DNA of 62,992 nt, the filler included, from Candidatus Babelota bacterium (lineage in GTDB: Bacteria > JAGOBX01), in NCBI GenBank assembly GCA_017999075.1. It is 11 parts of 11 records of this genome, joined end to end, with 100 filler letters (N's around TTAATTAATTAA, not from the genome) between each part and the next. Parts side by side here need not be neighbours in the genome. Positions count along the whole stretch, not along the records: positions 42,613 to 45,459 come from JAGOBX010000539.1; 10 more parts are not named here. One strand, given 5' to 3'. A program made the position numbers and the translations under genes. Position 1 is the stretch's first letter. Every line of letters begins with the position of its first letter. This document shows, in pieces, positions 8,423 to 50,403 of this stretch. The notes under the pieces were generated by a model. The model did no database searches. It had not been told where the DNA came from and saw only the letters and a list, made by a program, of their open reading frames with translations.

Positions 8423-8432
8423 ATGAAACATT

Positions 8433-9416
8433 ATGAAAAAATATATGGTGTTATTCGGGTCAAACGGATATTTTGGACATTATATATGCCAGGAATTGAT
8501 AACCCAGGGATATAATGTTATAGCATTTAAATTTCCGCATTTCAGATCTACTATTATTGAGCATCCGGATGTGGAATATTTTGAGTTCGATATCAGAACG
8601 GACCCGGCCGATAAAAAAGAATATTTTAAAAAAATTTTTGAAGGTAAAAGTATAAAAGGATTAATTAATGCGGCAGCTCTTCTTGGAGCATCAGATTACG
8701 ATTCTAATTATAAAACAAATGCTCTTGGAGTAAAAAATCTTGCAGAACTCGCAAAAATGTTTAATATCCCCAGATTTGTTCACGTAAGCACTGTTTGTGT
8801 AATCAAACCTATAAAAGGACCTTACGGAATAGCAAAAATGGAAGGAGATAATTTTTTAAAAAATTCCGGAATAAATTATACTATTTTTATTCCTGCATTG
8901 TTATTAGGTGTGGAAAGTCTGGGTTTGGGTAGAATTCTAAAAAATGTTTTCAAATTACCTTTTTTCGTCCCTTTAATAGGCGGCGGAAAAGAAACTCAAC
9001 ATCCTATTTACATAAAAGATTTTGCCCATTACATTGTCAAATGCGTTGAAACAGAAAAATGTATAAATAAAATTTATCAAATAGGCGGAGATACGGTAAT
9101 TTCTTTTAAAGAGTTTGTAGAAATGATTTTAAAATTTAAGAACAGAAAAAAAATTTTTATAACATTTCCTGTTTTTATAGCAAAAATAATAGCTAAATAT
9201 TTTCAGTTAACACAAAAACGGCCTTTATTTACACTCGAACATATTAAAGGAATTCTGCAGGATTCTAATCTGGATACTTCAGAACTTGTAAAAGACCTTA
9301 ATTTTAAACCAACGCCATTGAATACCGCATTAAAAGAATGCCTTGATAAACTCGGGGATAATTGGAACTATTATTTAAACGGATGGAATGAACGGGTTAT
9401 AAAAATCGGCAAATAA
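8433..9416 (+). CDS. NAD-dependent epimerase/dehydratase (extended/atypical SDR)
   Basis: GSNGYFG Rossmann motif, INAAA, YGIAK (YxxxK), QHPIYIKD. Confidence 0.85.
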   Translation: MKKYMVLFGSNGYFGHYICQELITQGYNVIAFKFPHFRSTIIEHPDVEYFEFDIRTDPADKKEYFKKIFEGKSIKGLINAAALLGASDYDSNYKTNALGVKNLAELAKMFNIPRFVHVSTVCVIKPIKGPYGIAKMEGDNFLKNSGINYTIFIPALLLGVESLGLGRILKNVFKLPFFVPLIGGGKETQHPIYIKDFAHYIVKCVETEKCINKIYQIGGDTVISFKEFVEMILKFKNRKKIFITFPVFIAKIIAKYFQLTQKRPLFTLEHIKGILQDSNLDTSELVKDLNFKPTPLNTALKECLDKLGDNWNYYLNGWNERVIKIGK

Positions 9417-9420
9417 ATTT

Positions 9421-10296
9421 ATGGATAATAATAAAACAAAATTCATCAGTGTAGTAATCCCTGCTTATAATGAAGAAGATTCCATATCTGTTTTAATATC
9501 TAAATTAAAACAGTTTGAAAATATTCTCGAAATAATTGTTATTGATGACGGTTCTTCTGACAATACATCTTTAAAAGCCGAAGAAGCCGGTGCCACAGTT
9601 ATTAAACAGCCTTATAACATAGGTAATGGAGCCGCAATAAAAAAAGGAATACTTAACGCCAAAGGAGATTATGTTCTTTGTATGGACGCTGATCTTCAGC
9701 ACCCGCCTGAAGAAATTCCAAATATGATAAAACATTCATATAAATACGATATGATAGTCGGATCGCGCACATCAGAATCAGGAGTTTCAAAATTCAGGGG
9801 ATTTGGAAATTTTTTCTTAATAAAAATAGCTGAATTCATTTCAGGTTATAAAATTCCTGATTTAACTTCAGGGTTCCGCCTTATAAATCGGGAAAAATGC
9901 CTGAAAGTAATTCATTTATTTCCAAACCAATATTCTTATCCTACTACTGTCACATTGGCTTTTTTCAATAATGGTTACGCAATAAAATATCTGCCGATGA
10001 AAACTATTACAAAACGGCAAACAGGAAAAAGCAATATAAAACCTTTTCGGGATGGAATAAGGTTTATAATAATTATATTGAGAATAGTAATGTTGTTCAA
10101 TCCTTTAAAAATTTTTCTACCAATTTCTTTTTTTATGTTTCTCGCCGGAACAATACAAAGCAGTTACGCTATTTTTTTTCTTAAGACCGGAATAAAACAA
10201 GCTTCAATAATATTTTTTGTAAGTTCAATATTAATATTATGTTTTGCAATGCTCGCAGAACAGATTTCTCAACTAAGAAAAAATATATATTTATAA
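9421..10296 (+). CDS. glycosyltransferase family 2 (DPM1-like) with C-terminal TM helices
   Basis: SVVIPAYNEE, IDDGSSD, MDADLQH, DLTSGFR. Confidence 0.92.
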   Translation: MDNNKTKFISVVIPAYNEEDSISVLISKLKQFENILEIIVIDDGSSDNTSLKAEEAGATVIKQPYNIGNGAAIKKGILNAKGDYVLCMDADLQHPPEEIPNMIKHSYKYDMIVGSRTSESGVSKFRGFGNFFLIKIAEFISGYKIPDLTSGFRLINREKCLKVIHLFPNQYSYPTTVTLAFFNNGYAIKYLPMKTITKRQTGKSNIKPFRDGIRFIIIILRIVMLFNPLKIFLPISFFMFLAGTIQSSYAIFFLKTGIKQASIIFFVSSILILCFAMLAEQISQLRKNIYL

Positions 10297-10297
10297 A

Positions 10298-11431
10298 ATG
10301 AAACTTTCTAACTATACAAGATTATTAAAAGACATTTCAATAACAAGATTAAACAGGTTTTCAGGGAACCCGTCAAAACTTAAGATGTTGTATTACGCTA
10401 TCACATGGAGATGCAACAGCAATTGTATATTCTGCGATGTGAAAAAATTAAATCGAAAAGACTTAAAAGAATTAACATCTAAAAACATCGGTAAAATTTT
10501 CGAAGATAAATATTTAAAAAGGCTTGAATATTTAAAAATTACTGGTGGCGAGCCTACTGTAAAAGAAGATTTGATAGATATTATAACAGAAATTTATAAT
10601 AAAAGCAAACCATCTTATATAGGCATAACTACCAATGGATTGAACACAGATATTATAAAAGATCTGGTAGGTAAAATTACAAATTTCGATGTTTCTCTAT
10701 CCCTAAGAATCAGTGTGGACGGAATAAACGAAAATTATAATAAAATCAGAAATTGCGGTGGCAATGCATTTGAAAAAGTCACAAAAACATTGGAAACTTT
10801 GAAACAATTTCAAAATAAAAAAAATCTAACTATAGGTATTAATCAAACGGTAAGTGAAGAAACTCTCAATAATATTGATGACGTAAAAAAATTATCTGAA
10901 AATCTCGGATATGAATATTATTTATTTTTTGCTCTTCCAACAAGAAATTTATGGAAACCAGATACTAAAACAATTCTATCTAATGATATTAAAGATTATC
11001 TGCCGGTTGAAAAATTTTCAAATGACCAAATTGAAAAAATTTTCAAAAACAATATAAATCAATCCACATTAAGCCTTTTAACCCATAAAAACAGTGAAAA
11101 TTTACTGAGTTTAAAATATTATCAAGATGGGTTTTACAACAGAATTAAATTAAATAAAAAAAAACCTAACAGCCCATGTCTTGCATTATTTAACAGATGC
11201 ATTCTTGACCCTTACGGCAATATTCTTACATGCAACTATATTACAAATCCAGTCGGCAATGCATCAGAAGACGGCTTCTCAAAAGTATGGAATTCAGAAT
11301 CTTCAAAGACAAACAGAAAATTAGTTAAAAACTGCGATAAATGCTGGCTCGGATGTGAAGTTATACCAAACGCAATTTACTCAGGCGAAATTATCAAATG
11401 GATATTGTCTCAACTTTTAAGCGGAAAATAA
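10298..11431 (+). CDS. radical SAM protein with SPASM/Twitch domain
   Basis: CNSNCIFC (CxxxCxxC), TGGEP, C-terminal C..DPYGNILTC..CDKCWLGC. Confidence 0.9.
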   Translation: MKLSNYTRLLKDISITRLNRFSGNPSKLKMLYYAITWRCNSNCIFCDVKKLNRKDLKELTSKNIGKIFEDKYLKRLEYLKITGGEPTVKEDLIDIITEIYNKSKPSYIGITTNGLNTDIIKDLVGKITNFDVSLSLRISVDGINENYNKIRNCGGNAFEKVTKTLETLKQFQNKKNLTIGINQTVSEETLNNIDDVKKLSENLGYEYYLFFALPTRNLWKPDTKTILSNDIKDYLPVEKFSNDQIEKIFKNNINQSTLSLLTHKNSENLLSLKYYQDGFYNRIKLNKKKPNSPCLALFNRCILDPYGNILTCNYITNPVGNASEDGFSKVWNSESSKTNRKLVKNCDKCWLGCEVIPNAIYSGEIIKWILSQLLSGK

Positions 11432-13204: not shown

Positions 13205-13304
13205 NNNNNNNNNNNNNNNNNNNNNNNNNNNNNNNNNNNNNNNNNNNNTTAATTAATTAANNNNNNNNNNNNNNNNNNNNNNNNNNNNNNNNNNNNNNNN
13301 NNNN
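13205..13304. other. artificial contig linker N44-TTAATTAATTAA-N44
   Basis: Identical 100-nt linkers also at 26395-26494, 39566-39665, 42513-42612, 45460-45559, 48396-48495, 51327-51426, 54256-54355, 57182-57281 and 60092-60191. Confidence 0.99.
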
Positions 13305-18524: not shown

Positions 18525-19532
18525 ATGAACAAACCTCATATTCAAAACCTTTCATATAAAATTTATAATAAAACCTTATCATTTATCTCAAACAATGATT
18601 TTATAATACGTTCAATCAACAGTTATTTTTCAGTTTATAATAATCTTCATAAATTCCGGTGTGTAGAAAATATAAATATAGAATTATATGACGTAAATTT
18701 TCATTCTGCCAAACTAAATAAAATTTCAAAATTTGAAACTGCATCCAATTCTTTTTTAGCAGAGCATAAAAACAGATTTAAAATATACAGGGTTAACAGA
18801 AATATATACTGCATAAATTTTTATAACGGATTGTCTAAAATATTTATTGATATAAAAAATTGCAAAGCTGAAGGTTATATCGTAAACCCTGAACGGTTTG
18901 GACTGGATTTTATTCCTAATTTTATTATAATTGCTCTGATAGAAATATTGTTTAAATTTAAAAATATTTTTTTTATTCATTCTTCGGCAGTAGTAAAAAA
19001 CGGAACGGCAATTCTGTTTCCCGGTTCTTCAGGAAGCGGCAAATCAACTCTTGCTTTTTATATGATGTCAAAAAAATTCAACCTTATTTCAGATGACAAA
19101 TGTTTCATCTACAATAAAAATGAAGAAACAATAGAAATTTCCGGATTATTACAGCCTGTAGATATAATTAAACGAAAAGATGATTTTTTAATTAACTCAG
19201 GATTAATAAAAAAAGTTTTTAATAAATATTCTGAAGACGAAAAAAGATTCATAATTACAGAATTTAAAAAAAATTCTGTTGATTTTACCGGAAAAATCAA
19301 ATTCATCATTTTTCCGAAAATCGGCGAAAAGTTCAATGTTAAAAAAATTTCTAAAAATAATGCATTGACCAGTTTGTTTAAAAACAGCATTACTCCAAGA
19401 TTAAACATTAATCTTAAACAGCATTTTGAGATTCTATACAAAACAATTGAAAATTCCGAGTGTTATAGTATCATTGTATCATCTGATTTAACAGAATTTT
19501 ATAAATTTATTAAAAAGGCATTACATTATTAA
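18525..19532 (+). CDS. HPr-kinase-related P-loop kinase
   Basis: IHSSAV..ILFPGSSGSGKST..LISDD, the HprK-type His / Walker A / DD signature. Confidence 0.75.
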   Translation: MNKPHIQNLSYKIYNKTLSFISNNDFIIRSINSYFSVYNNLHKFRCVENINIELYDVNFHSAKLNKISKFETASNSFLAEHKNRFKIYRVNRNIYCINFYNGLSKIFIDIKNCKAEGYIVNPERFGLDFIPNFIIIALIEILFKFKNIFFIHSSAVVKNGTAILFPGSSGSGKSTLAFYMMSKKFNLISDDKCFIYNKNEETIEISGLLQPVDIIKRKDDFLINSGLIKKVFNKYSEDEKRFIITEFKKNSVDFTGKIKFIIFPKIGEKFNVKKISKNNALTSLFKNSITPRLNINLKQHFEILYKTIENSECYSIIVSSDLTEFYKFIKKALHY

Positions 19533-26246: not shown

Positions 26247-26496
26247 CAGCTTAACCTCCGTACAAATCCTGGTTTTCTAAAAAAATAGAATTTATGAACC
26301 CTGATTCATAAAAATAAAAAAACACGCAAATAATAAAACTATTTCAAAAATACAATTATATATTTAAAAAAAATTATACAATAATATTTTATTANNNNNN
26401 NNNNNNNNNNNNNNNNNNNNNNNNNNNNNNNNNNNNNNTTAATTAATTAANNNNNNNNNNNNNNNNNNNNNNNNNNNNNNNNNNNNNNNNNNNNGT

Positions 26497-39565: not shown

Positions 39566-39665
39566 NNNNNNNNNNNNNNNNNNNNNNNNNNNNNNNNNNN
39601 NNNNNNNNNTTAATTAATTAANNNNNNNNNNNNNNNNNNNNNNNNNNNNNNNNNNNNNNNNNNNN

Positions 39666-40054
39666 ACCTTATATAAAACATCAGGATTCATGCCGTTTGT
39701 ATCAAGTTTGACAAAATATCCAAGCTGTTTTAAATATTTTATAAATGATTTAAGTCCAGGATGAATAGTTGGTTCGCCGCCGCATATCACAACTGCATCA
39801 TTAAATTTTCTTCTGATTTTCAAATTATCCATTATGTATTCGTGGGGTATGGAGATTTTATTTGTTAATAAAAATTTATTATGGCAGTATTCACATTTAA
39901 AATTGCATCCGTTTGTAAATAAAACTATAGAAATATGGCCGGGATAATCAATAAATGAATTCCATTCTATTCCGCCGAAACTTATATCTGAAAATATACA
40001 TTCATTATTATTATAGGTAGGAAGGGTATTATTGCATGTTTCGTTTTGTTTCAA
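39666..40054 (-). CDS. nrdG: anaerobic RNR activating enzyme, 3' end missing
   Basis: SFIDYPG, GCNFKCEYCHN, GGEPT, VKLDTNG; downstream of nrdD. Confidence 0.9.
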
Positions 40055-40096
40055 AGTATCCTCAAAAAACTATAAATTTTAAGTTGCTTAAAATTT

Positions 40097-40122
40097 AAGG
40101 GATTCACTAAAATGAATCCCTT
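40097..40122 (-). terminator. hairpin between nrdD and nrdG (terminator or mRNA stabiliser)
   Basis: aagggattca-N6-tgaatccctt; weak U-tract. Confidence 0.5.
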
Positions 40123-40155
40123 GAAACTTTTTTATTTATTCAACAAAACGACAGA

Positions 40156-42234
40156 TTAAACTACAGATTCATAAACAAATCTATTTTTAAATTCTTCCTG
40201 TTTCCCTTCATTCCAATTGCTTACCGGTCTTAAATAACCTACTATACGCGAAAAAACCTCAGCTTCTCTGCCGCATGTAGGACATTTATTTATTTTACCT
40301 TTAAAATATCCGTGCTCTGAACAAACACTAAAAGTCGGAGTTAAAGTAAAATAAGGAAGTTTATAAGTTGATGAAACTTTTTTCACTATTTTCTTTACAG
40401 TTTCAACATCAGGTATTTCTTCTTTTAAAAATATATGAAAAACCGTGCCGCCAGTATATAATACCTGCAAATCATCCTGATGATTTAAAGCTGCAAATAT
40501 ATCATTTGAATAATCGACAGGTAATTGAGTCGAGTTTGAATAATACGGTATCCCGTTTCCAGACGTCGCTATCATAGGAAAAACTTTTCTGTCAAGTCTG
40601 GCCAATCTGTAAGAAGTTCCTTCAGCAGGAGTGGATTCAAGATTATACAGATTCCCTGTTTTTTCCTGATAACCCATAATCCTCTCGCGCATAAAATTCA
40701 ATATTTCTTTTGCAAATTCTTTCCCTTCTTTTTCACCTATATCTTTACCCAAAAAATTAAGACAGCACTCATTGCCGCCAACTAATCCGATAGTCGAAAA
40801 ATGGTTAACCCAATATTGTTTGTTTTTCTGATAAATATCTTTTAAGTAATATTTTGCATAAGGATATATTCCGCTTTGTGTTGTAGCTTCCAAAAATCTG
40901 CGTTTAATCTCAAGACTCTCACTTGCCGAATCCATCAGCAACCCCAGTCTGTTAAAAAATTCTTCTTTATTTTTGGCTATATAGCCTATTCTCGGCAAAT
41001 TTATTGTAACTACACCTATGCTTCCTGTCAAAGGATTTGCTCCGAATAACCCGCCGCCTCTGCTTAATAATTCACGGTTGTCAAGACGAAGCCTGCAACA
41101 CATACTTCGTGCGTCTTCAGGATTCATATCAGAATTAACAAAATTAGAAAAATAAGGTGTTCCGTATTTAGCAGTCATTTTCCATATTAATTCATAATTA
41201 GGATTATCCCAGTCAAAATCTTTTGTAATATTGTAAGTGGGTATAGGGAAAGAAAATACCCTGCTGGAAGCATCGCCTTCCAGCATAACTTCAGCAAACG
41301 CCTTATTTATCAAATTCATTTCTTCCTGGAAGTCGCCATAAGTTTTATTTTTAATTTCACCGCCTATAATCACAAACTGGTTTTTTAAAATTTCAGGAGG
41401 CTGAAGATCCATTGTAATATTTGTAAAAGGAGTCTGAAATCCTACTCTTGTTGGAATATTTAAATTAAAAATAAATTCCTGAAGAGACTGTTTGATTTGG
41501 TCATAATCCAGTTTATCATAATATATAAAAGGAGCAAGATACGTATCAAAATTTGAAAATGCCTGGGCGCCGGCAGCTTCTCCCTGAAGAGTGTAGAAAA
41601 AATTAACAATTTGACCTAAAGCGGTTCTGAAATGTTTCGGGGGTTTACATTCAACTTTTCCCGGAACTCCGCGGAAACCGTTGGCAAGAAGGTTGAACAA
41701 ATCCCATCCGCAGCAGTAAACCGCAAGTATATTAAGATCGTGAATATGGTAATCTCCTGAATTATGAGCATCTCTTATATGTTTAGGATAAATCTTATTC
41801 AGCCAGTAATTAGCGCTTATAGAAGATGCAACATAATTATTTAATCCTTGTATCGAATAAGTCATGTTGCTGTTTTCACTCACACGCCAATCCATACGGT
41901 TAAGGTACTTATCTATTATTTGAGTCATATCTTCAAATAATTTATCTGTCTGTTCAATATTTTTATATTGCATTCTGTAAAGAGAATATGATTTCGCAAT
42001 ACGCCACAATCCCTGATTCACAAACTCTTCTTCAACTATATCAGATATAGTTTCAATATCTATAACAGTTTTGCTTTTATACATTTCATTCAGTTTGTTT
42101 AAACAATTATCATATATTAAAACTGTTTTTTCTTTTGAAACATTGAATTGAGAACAAACTTTTTCAATAGCATTTTTCATTTTTAAAGGGTTATCCGCAA
42201 CGATATCTCCATTGCGTTTTTTAATGTACTTCAT
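40156..42234 (-). CDS. nrdD: class III anaerobic ribonucleoside-triphosphate reductase with ATP cone
   Basis: IKKRNG ATP cone, HIHDL, YCCGW, RSMCCRL, TPAEG, C..HG..CPTC, glycyl-radical SRIVGY. Confidence 0.96.
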   Translation of the reverse strand: MKYIKKRNGDIVADNPLKMKNAIEKVCSQFNVSKEKTVLIYDNCLNKLNEMYKSKTVIDIETISDIVEEEFVNQGLWRIAKSYSLYRMQYKNIEQTDKLFEDMTQIIDKYLNRMDWRVSENSNMTYSIQGLNNYVASSISANYWLNKIYPKHIRDAHNSGDYHIHDLNILAVYCCGWDLFNLLANGFRGVPGKVECKPPKHFRTALGQIVNFFYTLQGEAAGAQAFSNFDTYLAPFIYYDKLDYDQIKQSLQEFIFNLNIPTRVGFQTPFTNITMDLQPPEILKNQFVIIGGEIKNKTYGDFQEEMNLINKAFAEVMLEGDASSRVFSFPIPTYNITKDFDWDNPNYELIWKMTAKYGTPYFSNFVNSDMNPEDARSMCCRLRLDNRELLSRGGGLFGANPLTGSIGVVTINLPRIGYIAKNKEEFFNRLGLLMDSASESLEIKRRFLEATTQSGIYPYAKYYLKDIYQKNKQYWVNHFSTIGLVGGNECCLNFLGKDIGEKEGKEFAKEILNFMRERIMGYQEKTGNLYNLESTPAEGTSYRLARLDRKVFPMIATSGNGIPYYSNSTQLPVDYSNDIFAALNHQDDLQVLYTGGTVFHIFLKEEIPDVETVKKIVKKVSSTYKLPYFTLTPTFSVCSEHGYFKGKINKCPTCGREAEVFSRIVGYLRPVSNWNEGKQEEFKNRFVYESVV

Positions 42235-42612
42235 ATTATAAATCCTCCAGAAATGCCGGACTACAATAAAATTTTAAATAATTATTCCGGCTTGTCAGGC
42301 AAATATTGTTTAAAATTTGCCAAACATAAATAATAAATGTTTTCCGTGCTGAAAAGCATAGTCATCATCATTATTATTAATTTCATTAAAATCGTCGTGA
42401 TAATTATTATTTTCTAATGAAATCAGTTTTAAATTATTTTTAATATACAATTTTTAAAGATATTAGTTTTTATGGCGTGTGGGGATTCTGCGGCGCATAC
42501 GCACATGACACCNNNNNNNNNNNNNNNNNNNNNNNNNNNNNNNNNNNNNNNNNNNNTTAATTAATTAANNNNNNNNNNNNNNNNNNNNNNNNNNNNNNNN
42601 NNNNNNNNNNNN

Positions 42613-42723
42613 ATCACAGACAGGATCAAGAACAGCAGCGCTGCAAAGACAAAAATAAAAAAATTTTTTAAATTTATGTATTTCCAATTCCGGTTTTACA
42701 TATTCTTTTTTTTTATTTTCCAT
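42613..42723 (-). CDS. putative RiPP precursor peptide, 3' end missing (not in the ORF track)
   Basis: MENKKKEYVKPELEIHKFKKFFYFCLCSAAVLDPVCD...; YxxPxL leader motif, Cys-rich C-terminal part. Confidence 0.7.
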
Positions 42724-42732
42724 AACAAAAAT

Positions 42733-42760
42733 ATTATATCCGTAATGTTAAAAAAATCAA
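42733..42760 (-). promoter_or_regulatory. promoter TTGATT-N16-TATAAT for the putative precursor, nearly leaderless
   Basis: -10 ends 9 nt before ATG 42723. Confidence 0.55.
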
Positions 42761-42808
42761 TAAAATTATATATTTTCAGGTTTATAATTATATCTTTGCG
42801 GATAAGAA

Positions 42809-43180
42809 TTAATTTTTATTTTTTTGAAAAACAATAACCGGATTTTCATTTGAGTAACCGCTGCAGTTAAAATATTCGCAATGTCCCTTTTTTTGATTAT
42901 TATATACATTCAAAAACAGTGCGCCGTTTCCTGCAAGATAATATTTTACCAATGAGGAATTATAACAAGTCCATTTGAAAAAAAATAAGGTGCCGGTAAT
43001 TATTTTTATTGCTTTAAATATCCGAAAAGCATTTTTAATATGAATTTTATCTATTTTTTTTATATTGTTTCCATTATTCACGAAATTTAATGGCGCTTTA
43101 TGAAAATATACAAGCATGGCTGCAGTAAATACATTAATAAATAATAAAACAAATGAATAAATTTTTTTTAAATGACGCAT
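42809..43180 (-). CDS. divergent lasso-peptide B2-like (transglutaminase-fold) peptidase, 123 aa
   Basis: Likely start ATG 43180 (MRHLKK), just past the upstream stop; 'WTCYNSSLVKYYL...LFLNV...KKGHCEY' parallels the B2 'CL.RSL....L...GV....HAW' pattern. Confidence 0.5.
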   Translation of the reverse strand: MRHLKKIYSFVLLFINVFTAAMLVYFHKAPLNFVNNGNNIKKIDKIHIKNAFRIFKAIKIITGTLFFFKWTCYNSSLVKYYLAGNGALFLNVYNNQKKGHCEYFNCSGYSNENPVIVFQKNKN

Positions 43181-43193
43181 TACTCTTGATTCA

Positions 43194-43916
43194 TTACTTT
43201 GTTTCGCTTGTAATATCTGAATTAACAGATTCGGTTTTATCTGCAAATGCTTTCATAAAACTGTTATTAATATTTTTTTTTTTATAATAATCAACAGCTC
43301 TAATGATTGCATTTTCCCAATCATCCCCATATTTTTTTTTGAATTCCTGAATTATATGAAGTTTATAAAAGTAAATGTCTTCGGAAGTATTGACATCTTC
43401 GGAAGATTGAGAATCTGTATGTGAAATCATTCCATTTGAATTTTGTGAAGGACCGCGGAAATTTTCAGCAGGCAATTTAATATGGTTTGAAGTTGCAGTA
43501 TAATTTTTAAAAATCGAATTGTCCTGAATTTTTTTTTTACTTTTTTCGAACTCCACAAAAAAGAAACTAAATGTAATGGCTGCAATAAAAAAAATAATTG
43601 AAGCGTACATTTTGAATTTAACTGTGAAAAAATGTTCTATATTATGATAAAAATTTTCGATTGAAATTTCATGTTGTTTTCTGAATTTTAAAAAGATAGG
43701 CCCTAAAATTTTGTAAAGCAGAATATCGAAAAGATTTATGTAAGAAAGATCTATTTTATTGAATTCATTTTTGTCAATTATTGTAGTAAATAATTGAATG
43801 ACTGAATAAATCACTCCAAATATAATTAAAGATAAAATTAAACCGGCCCATCCGAACAGTTTAAAACAGATAAGACTTAAAAATAATAGAATGCCGGCGT
43901 TTAAAAAAATAACCAT
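43194..43916 (-). CDS. hypothetical membrane protein
   Basis: 240 aa; about 3 hydrophobic segments, then a polar C-terminal domain. Confidence 0.6.
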   Translation of the reverse strand: MVIFLNAGILLFLSLICFKLFGWAGLILSLIIFGVIYSVIQLFTTIIDKNEFNKIDLSYINLFDILLYKILGPIFLKFRKQHEISIENFYHNIEHFFTVKFKMYASIIFFIAAITFSFFFVEFEKSKKKIQDNSIFKNYTATSNHIKLPAENFRGPSQNSNGMISHTDSQSSEDVNTSEDIYFYKLHIIQEFKKKYGDDWENAIIRAVDYYKKKNINNSFMKAFADKTESVNSDITSETK

Positions 43917-43925
43917 AAATTATAT

Positions 43926-45143
43926 TTATAACCTGATTCCCATATTCGTTTCAATATATTTAACATATTGAGGTATTAAAGATAATCTTTCCGAACTTTT
44001 CATAAATCCGCTTTTTAGACCGTTTAATTCAATTGTACACAAATCATTAAAGTTTAAATTATGATACAAATAAGCTATAAAATTTTCTTTTGTTTTAGTA
44101 GTATTTGAAACCAGTCTGTTATCCTGGCATATAACTATCCTTAATCTGTGTTTTTTAAAAAATTCTCCTATAGGATGGTTTTTATATTCTTTGATATTCT
44201 CACAAGTTTGTATATTGCTTGTTATACATACCTCTACAGGTATACGTTTCATTCCTTTTACATATTCCAGCAAATCAAGATTGTCAAGAAGATTGGTGCC
44301 ATGTCCGATTCTATCCACTCCGCAATCAACTATAGCTTGTTTTATACTTTGCCATCCGAACGCTTCACCTGCATGACAAGTATTGTATAAACCTGCTTTT
44401 TGAATCAGTTTATATGCTTCAACAAAATTTTTTGCCGGATATCCTTTTTCCGGTCCTGCGATATCAAACCCCACCACACGTTTTATTCCATCTACTTTAT
44501 TGGCATTAACTGCAAGTACAGCAGTATTTCTTGCTACTTCTTGAGCAAGTTGCTTATTGTTGAAGCAAGAAAAAAAAGTTGCTATTTTTTTATGATACGG
44601 GGACATCGTAGAAGAAAATATCCTTACTCCGCATAAAATCATATTTGATTTTATTCCAAAATCTTTTTCTGCGCGTTCCAGTCCTGTATTGACTGCGCGC
44701 ACTACTTCATAAGGTTTTAATTTTTTATGCGTATAATTCATCGGAGCGAACCTCAGTTCAAAATATATCACATTTTCATTTGCCAAATCTTCTGCGAGTT
44801 CATAAGCTGCCCGTTCAAGTGCATATTTTTCCTGAAGAAGAGGTTCGGTTATTTTTCCAAAAACTGTAAGATACCCTTCGAGATTATCATATTTGTCTTT
44901 TGAAACGATTTTTGATAATTCCGGTTTTGTATAAGCGGGCAATTCAAATTTTTGTTCTTTGGCAAGTTCAATTATTGTTTCTACTCTGAGAGAACCTCCG
45001 AGATGCAGATGTAAATCAACTTTAGGGAGCGAAAATATTTTTTCTATGATATTTCTGTGTTTACTGAAAAATTTTAAGTCAATTTTTGTCAAATCGGAAA
45101 GTTCCTTGTTTGATAATTTTTTTACATTATATTTACTGAACAT
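43926..45143 (-). CDS. add: adenosine deaminase family protein
   Basis: LPKVDLHLHLGGSLR, YFELRFAP, GFDIAGPE, TCHAGE, RIGHG, EVCITSN, QDN. Confidence 0.88.
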   Translation of the reverse strand: MFSKYNVKKLSNKELSDLTKIDLKFFSKHRNIIEKIFSLPKVDLHLHLGGSLRVETIIELAKEQKFELPAYTKPELSKIVSKDKYDNLEGYLTVFGKITEPLLQEKYALERAAYELAEDLANENVIYFELRFAPMNYTHKKLKPYEVVRAVNTGLERAEKDFGIKSNMILCGVRIFSSTMSPYHKKIATFFSCFNNKQLAQEVARNTAVLAVNANKVDGIKRVVGFDIAGPEKGYPAKNFVEAYKLIQKAGLYNTCHAGEAFGWQSIKQAIVDCGVDRIGHGTNLLDNLDLLEYVKGMKRIPVEVCITSNIQTCENIKEYKNHPIGEFFKKHRLRIVICQDNRLVSNTTKTKENFIAYLYHNLNFNDLCTIELNGLKSGFMKSSERLSLIPQYVKYIETNMGIRL

Positions 45144-45233
45144 ATTTTATAAAAAAACTCCTTATTAAAAAATTATAAATGAATTATACAAATAATAAAA
45201 TAATGATAAGAATTTCATTTGTATTTAATCATA

Positions 45234-45261
45234 ATAATATTTTGAAAAATAAAATTGTCAA
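45234..45261 (-). promoter_or_regulatory. promoter TTGACA-N16-TATTAT for the deaminase operon
   Basis: Minus-strand hexamers about 90 nt upstream of 45143. Confidence 0.5.
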
Positions 45262-45384
45262 TGTATAAAAAAAACTTGTTTTTTTTTATATGGAAATATA
45301 TTATATAAGAGTTATAGGAGTTTATAAATTGAGCGCAATTGAAAAAATGAATCAATATAATAAAAATTTAGGAGGCGCCTGCTA

Positions 45385-45459
45385 ATGAATAAAAAAATAA
45401 TAATAATTGAAGATGACGTTGATTTATTGGAAACCGTCAAAGTACGTTTGGAAAAAGAG
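45385..45459 (+). CDS. response regulator receiver domain, N-terminal fragment
   Basis: SD AGGAGG then MNKKIIIIEDDVDLLETVKVRLEKE, cut by the linker. Confidence 0.8.
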
Positions 45460-49925: not shown

Positions 49926-50028
49926 GCATAGTTTCATTTAAATTATGAATTAAAAACCATGAAAAAAATGAATTTTTCGGTAATTTTTTTCAAAATAGAA
50001 TTTTACATTTTTTCAGGAGATGATTTTT

Positions 50029-50403
50029 ATGTCAGAAAAAAACAATTGCTGCTGCGGCGGCCAAAAAACTTTAATAATGGCTTGCTCAGGCGGGTCTAAT
50101 GTTGGTCAGGTTTCAAATAATGTAATGATTGAACTTGATAAAGCAGGAAAAGGCAGCGCGTATTGCCTTGCCGGAGTAGGCGGAGATTTATCAGGATTTA
50201 TTCAATCAACAAAATCCGCTAAAACTATTTTGATAGATGGCTGTCCTGTTGGCTGCGCTAAAGCGGTATTTAAGCGGCATAATTTATCTGCGGATAAATA
50301 TTTTGTAATTACAGATTTGGGAATAGAAAAGAATCATAATTTCGAAAAACTTTCTGAAGAAACAAAAATTGCGTTTGAAAAAATTGTTAAAAAATTGGAT
50401 TAG
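50029..50403 (+). CDS. DGC-domain putative zinc-binding protein
   Basis: ACSGGSNVGQ, CLAGVG, IDGCPVGCA; SD AGGAG favours ATG 50029. Confidence 0.9.
   Translation: MSEKNNCCCGGQKTLIMACSGGSNVGQVSNNVMIELDKAGKGSAYCLAGVGGDLSGFIQSTKSAKTILIDGCPVGCAKAVFKRHNLSADKYFVITDLGIEKNHNFEKLSEETKIAFEKIVKKLD

What the first reader, a model, noticed from the sequence alone, without database searches (positions are those of the whole stretch)
42613..42760. Unannotated RiPP-like precursor: YxxPxL leader with a Cys1...Asp9 putative core and its own promoter
Seen: minus-strand ORF from ATG 42723, MENKKKEYVKPELEIHKFKKFFYF-CLCSAAVLDPVCD..., cut by the contig end, with TTGATT-N16-TATAAT just upstream. Established: RRE-dependent lasso leaders such as fusilassin place Y, P and L of YxxPxL at -17, -14 and -12; class I lasso cores such as siamycin begin with Cys1 and close the ring on Asp9. 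Seen: counting from Cys25 as residue 1 puts Y8/P11/L13 at exactly -17/-14/-12 and an Asp at position 9, with further Cys at 3 and 12. The usual Thr(-2) is replaced by Tyr in an aromatic FFYF stretch. Inference: either an atypical disulfide-containing lasso peptide or a Cys-rich substrate for a radical SAM enzyme or kinase, in an undescribed RiPP class.
Basis: partly seen in the sequence, partly recalled or inferred. Interest (0 to 1): 0.85.

Follow-up and report, generated by a model that had tools for sequence, protein, structure and literature searches.

The report
Truncated precursor of radical-SAM-modified peptide
The open frame is the first 37 codons of a real 56-codon gene for a small cysteine-bearing peptide that most likely is the raw material of a radical-SAM peptide-modifying pathway, not a lasso peptide.

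Summary
The ORF is there as described (ATG 42723, minus strand, 37 codons, cut by an artificial N-linker between contigs). A metagenome protein identical over all 37 residues shows the whole gene is 56 aa (P0002); two further orphan homologues (P0003, P0005) share an invariant EIHKFKKFFYFC block, Tyr and Pro of YxxP, four Cys and a C-terminal Ser/Thr. The lasso reading fails: an acid at core position 7-9 occurs in 1 of 3 members, Leu(-12) is Pro in one, and no cyclase is linked. The leader is significantly similar (hhalign 90-94%, 0/100 shuffles) to small ORFs lying immediately downstream of homologous radical SAM/SPASM genes in 13 of the 30 loci examined, which also carry a discrete PqqD-type RRE (26/30) and an HprK-related kinase-like gene (19/30). 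Best reading: RRE-dependent, rSAM/SPASM-modified (probably thioether) RiPP precursor, possibly phosphorylated on its C-terminal Ser. The window's own partner enzymes could not be seen (contig end, no genome held) and the nearest relative genome lacks the gene. An unexplained extra: this member's core mimics a CDGSH [2Fe-2S] motif without its His. The promoter-like motif is no more than chance in this AT-rich DNA.

The parts
42613..42723 (-). First 37 of 56 codons of the precursor-peptide gene (full length known from P0002); truncated by the end of the contig
   Evidence: ORF; 56-aa protein identical over 1-37; a Logan contig continues 113 nt past 42613
42652..42723 (-). Leader-like part, residues 1-24 (K-rich N-terminus, Tyr8-x-x-Pro11-x-Leu13, invariant EIHKFKKFFYF)
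   Evidence: invariant columns in 3 family members; hhalign 93.6% and 90.6% to leaders of rSAM-adjacent peptides; 0/100 shuffles reach the score
42613..42651 (-). Start of the Cys-bearing variable part (Cys25, Cys27, Cys36; the fourth conserved Cys54 and C-terminal Ser56 lie beyond the contig end); in this member it reads like a CDGSH motif without His
   Evidence: conserved Cys; CDGSH likeness
42733..42760 (-). Promoter-like TTGATT-N16-TATAAT; present but not above chance; would give a nearly leaderless mRNA; no Shine-Dalgarno
   Evidence: 17 sites found vs 19.3 +/- 3.8 in shuffles; (SD-like motif before only 8 of 34 long ORFs of the window)
42809..43180 (-). 123-codon ORF directly upstream (85 nt before the peptide ATG), function unknown; a look-alike of lasso B2 proteases by eye only, not supported
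   Evidence: no family; hhalign P 0.075-0.099, 13/100 shuffles as good; no homologue in 400 genomes at better than E 0.0025; AF2 pLDDT 59
42513..42612 (.). Artificial linker between two contigs (N44, TTAATTAATTAA, N44); not biology

Best explanation
The ORF is the 5' two thirds of a 56-codon gene for a ribosomal precursor peptide (RiPP precursor). Residues 1-24 are a leader of the lasso/PQQ type (K-rich start, YxxPxL) that is bound by a discrete PqqD-type RiPP recognition element (inferred). That element presents the Cys-bearing C-terminal part to a radical SAM/SPASM maturase, which most likely makes Cys-derived thioether cross-links (inferred from the nearest characterised enzymes). An HprK-related kinase, where present, may phosphorylate the conserved C-terminal Ser/Thr (inferred). 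The leader is then removed (by a B2-type protease in some clusters) and the product exported by an ABC transporter. It is not a lasso peptide. Shown: the gene is real, short and conserved, and its leader is homologous to leaders of peptides encoded right behind such maturases. Not shown: any of the chemistry, or that the window's own genome holds the enzymes.
For: (1) Full length 56 aa, not the start of a long protein. (2) Family pattern typical of RiPP precursors: 3 members at 49-58% identity share an invariant 12-residue block plus Tyr8, Pro11, four Cys and a C-terminal Ser/Thr, while the stretch between Cys27 and Cys54 varies in sequence and length. (3) HMM of the family over 400 genomes: best hit (E 3.9e-4) is a 47-codon ORF with a strong SD in G114. 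It overlaps the stop of a radical SAM+SPASM gene and is flanked by a lasso-B2 protease (NF033537 39.8 bits, cut-off 33), PqqD (79 bits), a weak HprK-related kinase-like gene, NTP_transf_5 and an ABC-2 exporter. Leader-to-leader hhalign 93.6%, P 2e-7. (4) Homologues of that maturase (E<=1e-35) occur in 55 of 400 genomes. In the top 30 loci (+/-1.5 kb) tblastn finds a PqqD-type RRE in 26, the kinase-like gene in 19, B2 in 3 and NTP_transf_5 in 2. In 13 of 30 a small ORF with K-rich start, Y-x-[KQ]-P-x-[LIV] and 2-4 Cys lies downstream on the maturase's strand, 13 of 13. (5) An alignment of 12 of these (G114 left out) matches the window family's leader at 90.6%, P 1.3e-6; 0 of 100 column shuffles reach it. 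Tyr to first Cys is 17-20 residues in them and 17 in the window. (6) 9 of those 12 end in Ser; with G114 and the 3 family members, 13 of 16 end in Ser/Thr. (7) The window organism's small phylum (3 genomes held) has the system: G002 has PqqD, B2-like, rSAM (31% identical to G114's, E 1e-52) and a 66-codon ORF in one operon. (8) Closest solved relative of the G114 maturase is the sactisynthase SkfB (E 2.5e-18). (9) HprK-like kinases phosphorylate Ser in paeninodin-like and LPP RiPPs, and YxxP is essential for RRE binding there (PMC13381572, sections 6-10 and passages read).
Against: No partner enzyme is linked to the peptide in the window. The 2.8 kb upstream hold adenosine deaminase, a membrane protein and an unknown 123-aa ORF, not a maturase, whereas in 13 of 13 comparison loci the peptide follows the maturase. 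tblastn of the G114 RRE and B2 against the 63-kb window finds nothing. The window's one rSAM/SPASM gene (10298-11428) and its HprK-related-like gene (18525-19532) have orthologues in G001, which lacks the peptide, and they sit in other contexts. The closest genome G001 (ADA 92% aa) has no homologue at the syntenic site or elsewhere, and only a PqqD + B2-like remnant. The first search, of G001 and 59 other relatives, gave only chance-level hits. The three close family members come from contigs of 605-1326 bp without usable context. The G002 peptide is not significantly similar. The kinase naming rests on sub-threshold hits (27.7 and 55 bits against a cut-off of 200). No RNA holder is listed and no chemistry is known.
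Confidence: 0.68

Rival explanations
1. A CDGSH-derived, four-cysteine metal- or [2Fe-2S]-binding miniprotein. Cys25, Cys27 and Cys36 would be the three Cys ligands of a CDGSH domain whose His was lost, and Cys54 the replacement fourth ligand.
For: The family profile's best PDB hits are CDGSH proteins (3tbn_A E 5.4e-5 over two stretches, 6avj_A 0.056, 3tbo_A 0.13). Pfam zf-CDGSH hits P0002 at E 0.017, 15.8 bits. hhalign against CDGSH domains taken from 23 matches in related genomes gives 84.5% (P 7e-6), and against 9 short tandem CDGSH proteins 77.7%. 0 of 150 shuffles with the Cys columns held fixed reach the score, so it is more than Cys spacing. P0002 reads C-x-C-x8-C-D-G-S with Pro two residues before the third Cys, as in the motif.
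Against: The score is below Pfam's cut-off (29.5). The signal is carried by P0002 alone: P0005 scores 18.5 (1/60 shuffles as good) and P0003 15.6 (2/60). The near-invariant P-x-C-D-G-[SAT]-H of real CDGSH domains is kept in 1 of 3 members and the His ligand in none. The more distant rSAM-adjacent relatives lack C-x-C altogether. No CDGSH gene was found in the 3 genomes of the phylum. The N-terminal 24 residues match RiPP leaders, not CDGSH. AF2 gives no fold (pLDDT 49.6).
Confidence: 0.1
2. An atypical class-I-like lasso peptide. The leader would be cut before Cys25, a macrolactam formed from Cys1 to Asp9, and disulfides made from the remaining Cys.
For: The spacing Tyr(-17)/Pro(-14)/Leu(-12) and Cys1/Asp9 fits siamycin-type precursors. 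In humidimycin the leader MSAIYEPPALQEIGDFDELTK has the same spacing and the ring is Cys1-Asp9 (PMC7168211, passages read). YxxPxL plus Thr(-2) is the RRE signal (PMC6784204, passages). A B2-type protease and a PqqD RRE accompany the G114 homologue.
Against: Asp/Glu at core position 7-9 is present in only 1 of 3 family members (P0005 has Gly-Thr-Thr there, P0003 Gln-Gly-Thr). Thr(-2) is absent in all. No lasso model hits. The G114 cluster has no adjacent cyclase: the only Asn-synthase gene on that contig is 11.6 kb away among glycosyltransferases, passes the true asparagine synthase model (517 bits, cut-off 267) and fails the lasso cyclase model (285 bits, cut-off 525). B2 is found in only 3 of 30 related loci.
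Confidence: 0.04
3. An orphan or decaying precursor gene. It is real by descent but no longer served by enzymes in this genome, or it is a small protein of unrelated function that merely keeps a leader-like N-terminus.
For: No enzyme is linked in the window. The gene sits in a variable spot: DNA similarity to G001 ends at about 43269. G001 shows that the system decays in this lineage, with only PqqD + B2-like left. There is no SD and only a chance-level promoter motif.
Against: The frame is intact and identical in at least two further assemblies (P0002 seen on 2 contigs). Logan contigs of three runs from two studies show no differences where they cover it. The three members keep four Cys and a 12-residue invariant block at about 50% overall identity, which argues for selection.
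Confidence: 0.15

Closest known systems
Sactipeptide / ranthipeptide precursors and their rSAM/SPASM thioether synthases (e.g. SkfA/SkfB)
   Same: A short precursor with leader and Cys-bearing core. The maturase of the homologous G114 cluster has radical SAM + SPASM domains. Its closest solved relative is SkfB, and StsB, AlbA and SkfB models are among its NCBIfam hits.
   Different: No NCBIfam peptide-maturase model reaches its cut-off. The RRE is a separate PqqD protein rather than an N-terminal domain of the maturase (its CxxxCxxC starts at residue 28). The leader is of the lasso YxxP type. A kinase-like gene is usually present. No product is known.
SynChlorMet (ScmC/D/E/F) and GeoRSP cassettes of NCBIfam/TIGRFAMs (PqqD + HprK-related protein + rSAM/SPASM)
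   Same: The same three-gene core is found next to the homologous peptides: RRE in 26/30 and kinase-like in 19/30 loci. ScmC, ScmD, ScmE, the GeoRSP PqqD and rSAM models and HprK_rel_A/B are among the best hits.
   Different: All these hits are far below the curated cut-offs (e.g. ScmE 112.8 vs 400, GeoRSP rSAM 111.3 vs 400, ScmD 44.2 vs 100), so these are related cassettes, not members. What I know of these cassettes beyond the model names is recalled. No paper in the held library names them.
Lasso peptides, paeninodin-like and siamycin-like
   Same: YxxPx[L/I] leader at -17/-14/-12 from the first Cys. A discrete PqqD RRE and a B2 protease occur in some related clusters, and HprK-like kinase and NTP transferase are accessory genes (PMC13381572 section 6). 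The C-terminal Ser resembles the phosphorylated C-terminal Ser of paeninodin (recalled, not checked here).
   Different: No macrolactam cyclase, no conserved acid at position 7-9, no Thr(-2).
Linear polyphosphorylated peptides (LPP; Popov et al. 2026, PMC13381572)
   Same: [quoted passage not shown] The LPP consensus YxxPxVLxH has a His nine residues after the Tyr, as in the window's YVKPELEIH (sequence).
   Different: LPP clusters are defined by an archaeal-type signal peptidase and have no radical SAM enzyme ('radical SAM' occurs 0 times in the text). LPP precursors are not Cys-patterned, and they come from Bacillota.
CDGSH iron-sulfur domain (Pfam PF09360)
   Same: P0002 residues 23-39 fit [YF]-x-C-x-C-x8-C-D-G-S with Pro at -2 of the third Cys.
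   Different: His ligand absent. The motif is not kept in the other members. Score below cut-off.

Membership tests
Lasso peptide precursor (class I type) | Asp or Glu at core position 7, 8 or 9 to close the macrolactam, conserved among homologues | tested here: not met
   Present in P0002 (Asp9), absent in P0005 and P0003: 1 of 3
Lasso peptide precursor (class I type) | YxxPxL in the leader with Thr at -2 | tested here: not met
   Tyr and Pro are invariant in 3 of 3. Leu is Ile in P0005 and Pro in P0003. Position -2 from Cys25 is Tyr in all. The requirement comes from PMC6784204 and PMC7168211 (passages)
Lasso peptide precursor (class I type) | Asn-synthetase-like cyclase, B1 (RRE) and B2 protease encoded nearby | tested here: inconclusive
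   The window's context is missing (contig end; no genome held). In the homologous G114 cluster B1 and B2 are present but there is no adjacent cyclase
RRE-dependent rSAM/SPASM-modified Cys peptides (PqqD + rSAM/SPASM +/- HprK-like cassette) | Short precursor with conserved leader and variable Cys-bearing C-terminal part | tested here: met
   56 aa; invariant leader block; variable, indel-rich region between conserved Cys
RRE-dependent rSAM/SPASM-modified Cys peptides (PqqD + rSAM/SPASM +/- HprK-like cassette) | Leader homologous to leaders of peptides encoded beside the maturase | tested here: met
   hhalign 93.6% to the G114 peptide. 90.6%, P 1.3e-6 to 12 other rSAM-adjacent peptides, with 0/100 shuffles as good
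RRE-dependent rSAM/SPASM-modified Cys peptides (PqqD + rSAM/SPASM +/- HprK-like cassette) | Gene adjacent to PqqD-type RRE and rSAM/SPASM maturase in the same genome | tested here: inconclusive
   Not upstream within 2.8 kb. Downstream is unseen. No G114-type RRE or B2 in the 63-kb window. The whole genome is not held
RRE-dependent rSAM/SPASM-modified Cys peptides (PqqD + rSAM/SPASM +/- HprK-like cassette) | Enzymatic modification (thioether, phosphate) of the peptide | not testable with these tools
   Needs expression and mass spectrometry
NCBIfam SynChlorMet / GeoRSP systems | Cluster proteins score above the curated cut-offs of the Scm or GeoRSP models | tested here: not met
   G114 cluster: ScmD 44.2 vs 100, ScmE 112.8 vs 400, GeoRSP rSAM 111.3 vs 400, HprK_rel_A 27.7 vs 200
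CDGSH iron-sulfur domain | C-x-C-x2-[ST]-x3-P-x-C-D-G-[SAT]-H with the His ligand; Pfam score above 29.5 bits | tested here: not met
   15.8 bits; His replaced by Gly in P0002; motif not kept in P0003 or P0005. The motif wording is recalled
Linear polyphosphorylated peptides (LPP) | Archaeal-type signal peptidase I with RRE, HprK-like kinase and NTP transferase; leader YxxPxVLxHQxIxFETxxS | tested here: inconclusive
   The leader shares only YxxPx[VL]..H (sequence). No signal peptidase gene was looked for in the window. The homologous clusters carry an rSAM instead

The most novel reading that the evidence does not exclude
The window's peptide and its relatives define an uncharacterised RiPP class, spread over many little-known phyla. 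A lasso-type YxxP leader and a discrete RRE have been recruited to a SPASM radical SAM enzyme and an HprK-related kinase, giving thioether-bridged peptides with a phosphorylated C-terminal serine. In the window's own subfamily the core has either evolved from, or converged on, a CDGSH iron-sulfur binding loop. If so, a RiPP core could transiently ligate the maturase's auxiliary cluster or bind a metal itself.
Probability: 0.3. Interest if true: 0.7.

Novelty: new variant of a known kind. Interest (0 to 1): 0.48.

Why it matters
It shows that a 111-nt fragment at a contig end is a real gene of a peptide family with no model in Pfam or NCBIfam. It ties that family, through its leader, to a PqqD / rSAM-SPASM / kinase-like cassette: homologues of the G114 maturase occur in 55 of 400 sampled genomes, and the flanking genes were checked in the 30 best loci. 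I found no publication on the cassette's product. The family gives a concrete, testable case of how the lasso-type YxxP recognition signal is shared between different RiPP pathways. That question was recently opened experimentally for LPPs (PMC13381572). It also points to a conserved C-terminal Ser as a likely second modification site. For the window itself the matter is modest: one truncated gene without its enzymes.

Tried and rejected
- The whole genome of the window is not held.
- The search for related loci and the search for homologous proteins refuse a 37-aa query.
- JGI metagenome scans found nothing: a degenerate pattern of the core gave 0 matches, and in the family alignment scan 574 pattern matches held no relative.
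- The viral contig scan gave 0 relatives.
- Word-index protein searches found only the three family members. Fused or longer forms were not searched.
- Cluster look-up shows only short contigs without names.
- ESM Atlas gave no score of 0.9 or more for P0002 and nothing for the 123-aa ORF.
- Earlier findings of this scan: nothing.
- Sequencing runs: no RNA holder listed. The laid contigs do not print the letters beyond the contig end.
- AF2 of the family (pLDDT 49.6) and of the 123-aa ORF (pLDDT 59) was too poor for a fold search, so none was run.
- Complex prediction of the G114 RRE with the family leader gave no verdict (score 0.58, one control 0.56), so it is not used.
- The B2-protease reading of the 123-aa ORF is rejected as unsupported.
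- A G265 small ORF with a YxxPxM start (E 0.008) lies among glycoside hydrolase and helicase genes, and I take it as chance.
- The weak G001 hit (E 0.43) is antisense to a large surface-protein gene.
- The phyla of G001 and G114 hold only 3 and 9 genomes, so phylum-wide searches were small.
- Of the 21 regex candidates in 17 of the 30 maturase loci, I kept 13 and dropped 8: L096; L106 821-961; L110; L111; L115 2342-2548; L116 2051-2338; L122; L123 3375-3581. They lacked the K-rich start and Y-x-[KQ]-P, or lay inside or antisense to other genes. The regex background was 5.2 per 100 kb in 86 other loci, against 18.3 per 100 kb.
- Literature: no paper found for SynChlorMet/GeoRSP, nor for HPr kinase + radical SAM + PqqD + RiPP, nor for the wider term sets.
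- Supplementary files were not opened. Supplementary Data 2 of PMC13381572 (domain co-occurrence) might list rSAM-containing variants.

Full report
WHAT IS IN THE WINDOW

The window is not one piece of DNA. It is eleven contigs of a roughly 30% G+C draft genome, joined by N44-TTAATTAATTAA-N44 linkers. The finding lies on the contig 42613-45459.

On the minus strand an ATG at 42723 opens a frame that reads MENKKKEYVKPELEIHKFKKFFYFCLCSAAVLDPVCD and runs into the linker at 42612.

TTGATT-N16-TATAAT lies at 42760-42733, and its -10 box ends nine bases before the ATG. Such sites are as frequent in shuffled versions of this AT-rich contig (17 found, 19.3 +/- 3.8 expected). There is no Shine-Dalgarno sequence, but a crude count finds one before only 8 of 34 long ORFs of the window. 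The signals around the start therefore say nothing either way.

IS IT A GENE, AND HOW LONG

No whole genome is held for the window. An exhaustive phmmer search of 1.84 billion representative proteins with the 37 residues found three hits at E <= 0.001:
- P0002, 56 aa, identical over all 37 residues (E 7.7e-18).
- P0003, 51 aa (E 2.8e-6).
- A repetitive 638-aa protein without an aligned stretch, which I disregard.

A profile search added P0005, 57 aa. No further member appeared in the word-index searches.

The gene is therefore 56 codons long, and the window lacks the last 19 codons and the stop. A Logan contig of one wastewater or sludge run continues 113 nt beyond the contig end, which is room for this, though the tool does not print those letters.

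The three proteins are 49-58% identical. They share Tyr8, Pro11, an invariant EIHKFKKFFYFC block, four Cys (25, 27, 36 and 54 in P0002), a [IL]-D-A-x-G-x-C motif and a C-terminal Ser or Thr. The stretch between Cys27 and Cys54 differs in sequence and length. No Pfam or NCBIfam model reaches significance. All three come from contigs of 605-1326 bp without names.

THE LASSO READING

In the family, however:
- An acid at core position 7-9 occurs only in the window's own member (1 of 3).
- Leu(-12) is Pro in P0003.
- Position -2 is Tyr in all three.

Together with the lack of a cyclase in the homologous cluster (below), I put this reading at about 4%.

CONTEXT THROUGH RELATIVES

The closest genome found, G001 (adenosine deaminase 92% identical), shares the deaminase and the membrane-protein gene. 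DNA similarity stops at about window 43269. G001 has no homologue of the peptide there or elsewhere. Its phylum has only three genomes in the collection.

An HMM of the three proteins run over 400 genomes gave as its best hit (E 3.9e-4) a 47-codon ORF in G114. That ORF has a strong Shine-Dalgarno sequence and overlaps the stop codon of a radical SAM + SPASM gene. Around it lie:
- a lasso-type B2 protease (NF033537, above its cut-off);
- a PqqD-family protein;
- a weakly HprK-related kinase-like gene;
- an NTP_transf_5 gene;
- an ABC-2 exporter.

The only asparagine-synthase gene on that contig is 11.6 kb away among polysaccharide genes. It passes the true AsnB model and fails the lasso cyclase model. 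Leader-to-leader hhalign gives 93.6% (P 2e-7).

A chance hit at E 3.9e-4 is expected about 0.16 times in 400 genomes. Landing on a precursor-sized ORF inside such a cluster is not something chance would do.

HOW GENERAL IT IS

Homologues of the G114 maturase (E <= 1e-35) occur in 55 of 400 genomes. In the 30 best loci, each with only 1.5 kb of flank, tblastn finds:
- a PqqD-type RRE in 26;
- the kinase-like gene in 19;
- B2 in 3;
- NTP_transf_5 in 2.

A regular-expression screen gave 21 small-ORF candidates in 17 loci. Thirteen of them (one per locus) have a K-rich start, Y-x-[KQ]-P-x-[LIV] and 2-4 Cys. All thirteen lie just downstream of the maturase on its strand. The eight I dropped are listed under Tried and rejected.

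An alignment of twelve of them, leaving G114 out, matches the window family's first 20 residues at 90.6% (P 1.3e-6). None of 100 column shuffles comes near (maximum 16.0 against 31.1). Tyr-to-first-Cys spacing is 17-20 residues in these peptides and 17 in the window.

Nine of the twelve end in Ser. With G114 and the three close members, 13 of 16 end in Ser or Thr.

The window organism's own phylum has the system. G002 carries PqqD, a B2-like gene, a maturase 31% identical to G114's and a 66-codon ORF in one operon. That ORF is not significantly similar to the family. G001 retains only PqqD and the B2-like gene.

MECHANISM

Shown: a short, conserved gene, and a leader homologous to leaders of peptides encoded behind rSAM/SPASM maturases that travel with a discrete RRE.

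Inferred:
- The leader binds the PqqD-type RRE through Tyr8 and Pro11, as in lasso and LPP systems (PMC13381572, sections 6-10 and passages read).
- The SPASM enzyme cross-links Cys. Its closest solved relative is the sactisynthase SkfB.
- The kinase-like protein modifies the C-terminal Ser/Thr, by analogy with HprK-like kinases of paeninodin-like and LPP clusters. That paeninodin's site is its C-terminal Ser is recalled, not checked.
- A B2 protease or another peptidase removes the leader.

WHAT SPEAKS AGAINST IT FOR THIS WINDOW

- The peptide does not follow a maturase here. Upstream are adenosine deaminase, a membrane protein and an unknown 123-codon ORF.
- That ORF's eye-catching Cys...Gly-His pattern is not supported as a B2 protease (hhalign P 0.075-0.099; 13 of 100 shuffles as good; no homologues).
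- The 63-kb window has no G114-type RRE or B2.
- Its single rSAM/SPASM gene sits with a glycosyltransferase and an epimerase and has a 70% orthologue in peptide-less G001.
- Its HprK-related-like gene (18525-19532) is conserved across the phylum in another context.
- The enzymes, if present, lie beyond the contig end or on unseen contigs. An orphan gene remains possible.

AN UNEXPLAINED EXTRA

The family profile's best PDB hits are CDGSH iron-sulfur proteins, and Pfam zf-CDGSH hits P0002 at E 0.017. P0002 reads [YF]-x-C-x-C-x8-C-D-G-S with Pro two residues before the third Cys, but Gly where the His ligand should be.

Against CDGSH domains taken from related genomes, hhalign gives 78-85%, and no shuffle with the Cys columns fixed reaches the score (0 of 150). 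The signal is weak in P0005 and P0003 and absent in the more distant peptides. I rank a CDGSH-derived metal-binding miniprotein as a rival at about 10%, and otherwise leave the likeness unexplained.

VERDICT

This is a real, truncated gene for a RiPP precursor of an RRE-dependent rSAM/SPASM (plus kinase-like) cassette class. It is not a lasso peptide. Its partner enzymes in this genome are unverified. It is a new variant of a known kind, of moderate interest.

Noticed in passing
window 1-62992 (N runs listed): The window is a chain of 11 contigs (three of about 13.1 kb, eight of about 2.8-2.9 kb) joined by N44-TTAATTAATTAA-N44 spacers. Any feature that crosses 13205-13304, 26395-26494, 39566-39665, 42513-42612 and so on is an artefact.
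   Followed up: yes
window 18525-19532 (+): A 335-aa HprK-related kinase-like protein (TIGR04352 55 bits, below the cut-off of 200) sits behind a sigma-54 response regulator and before a SAM methyltransferase. It is homologous to the kinase-like gene of the G114 peptide cluster (tblastn E 1.3e-6). It is conserved in G001 (66%), G002 (47%) and G003 (25%) without an RRE or rSAM beside it.
   Followed up: partly
window 8427-11428 (+): Operon-like trio of NAD-dependent epimerase, family-2 glycosyltransferase and a radical SAM/SPASM protein that reaches no NCBIfam cut-off. There is a 70% orthologue in G001. Its substrate is unknown and it is probably not a peptide maturase of this finding.
   Followed up: partly
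L079 8352-10255 (-) (G002:C75): Operon of PqqD, a B2-like protease, rSAM/SPASM and a 66-codon ORF starting MKKQYKKYEL with two C-terminal Cys. It is a second candidate precursor type in the window organism's phylum, with Tyr where the YxxP proline would be.
   Followed up: partly
L080 9914-10592 (+) (G001:C60): PqqD and B2-like genes stand alone behind a molybdopterin oxidoreductase gene, with no rSAM and no small Cys ORF within about 700 bp. It looks like a remnant of the G002 operon.
   Followed up: no
L094-L123 (30 loci): 9 of 12 rSAM-adjacent precursor-like peptides end in Ser, and most have three Cys spaced 5-12 residues apart. The conserved C-terminal Ser suggests a terminal modification site.
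   Followed up: partly
window 39614-42234 (-): Anaerobic ribonucleotide reductase NrdD (692 aa, named from its sequence by eye, not scanned) with its activating radical SAM gene cut by the contig end. It is the only other CxxxCxxC gene near the finding, and it lies on a different contig.
   Followed up: no
window 49999-50400 (+): A DGC-domain protein (PF08859, 103.6 bits) with an N-terminal CCC run. It is unrelated to the finding.
   Followed up: no
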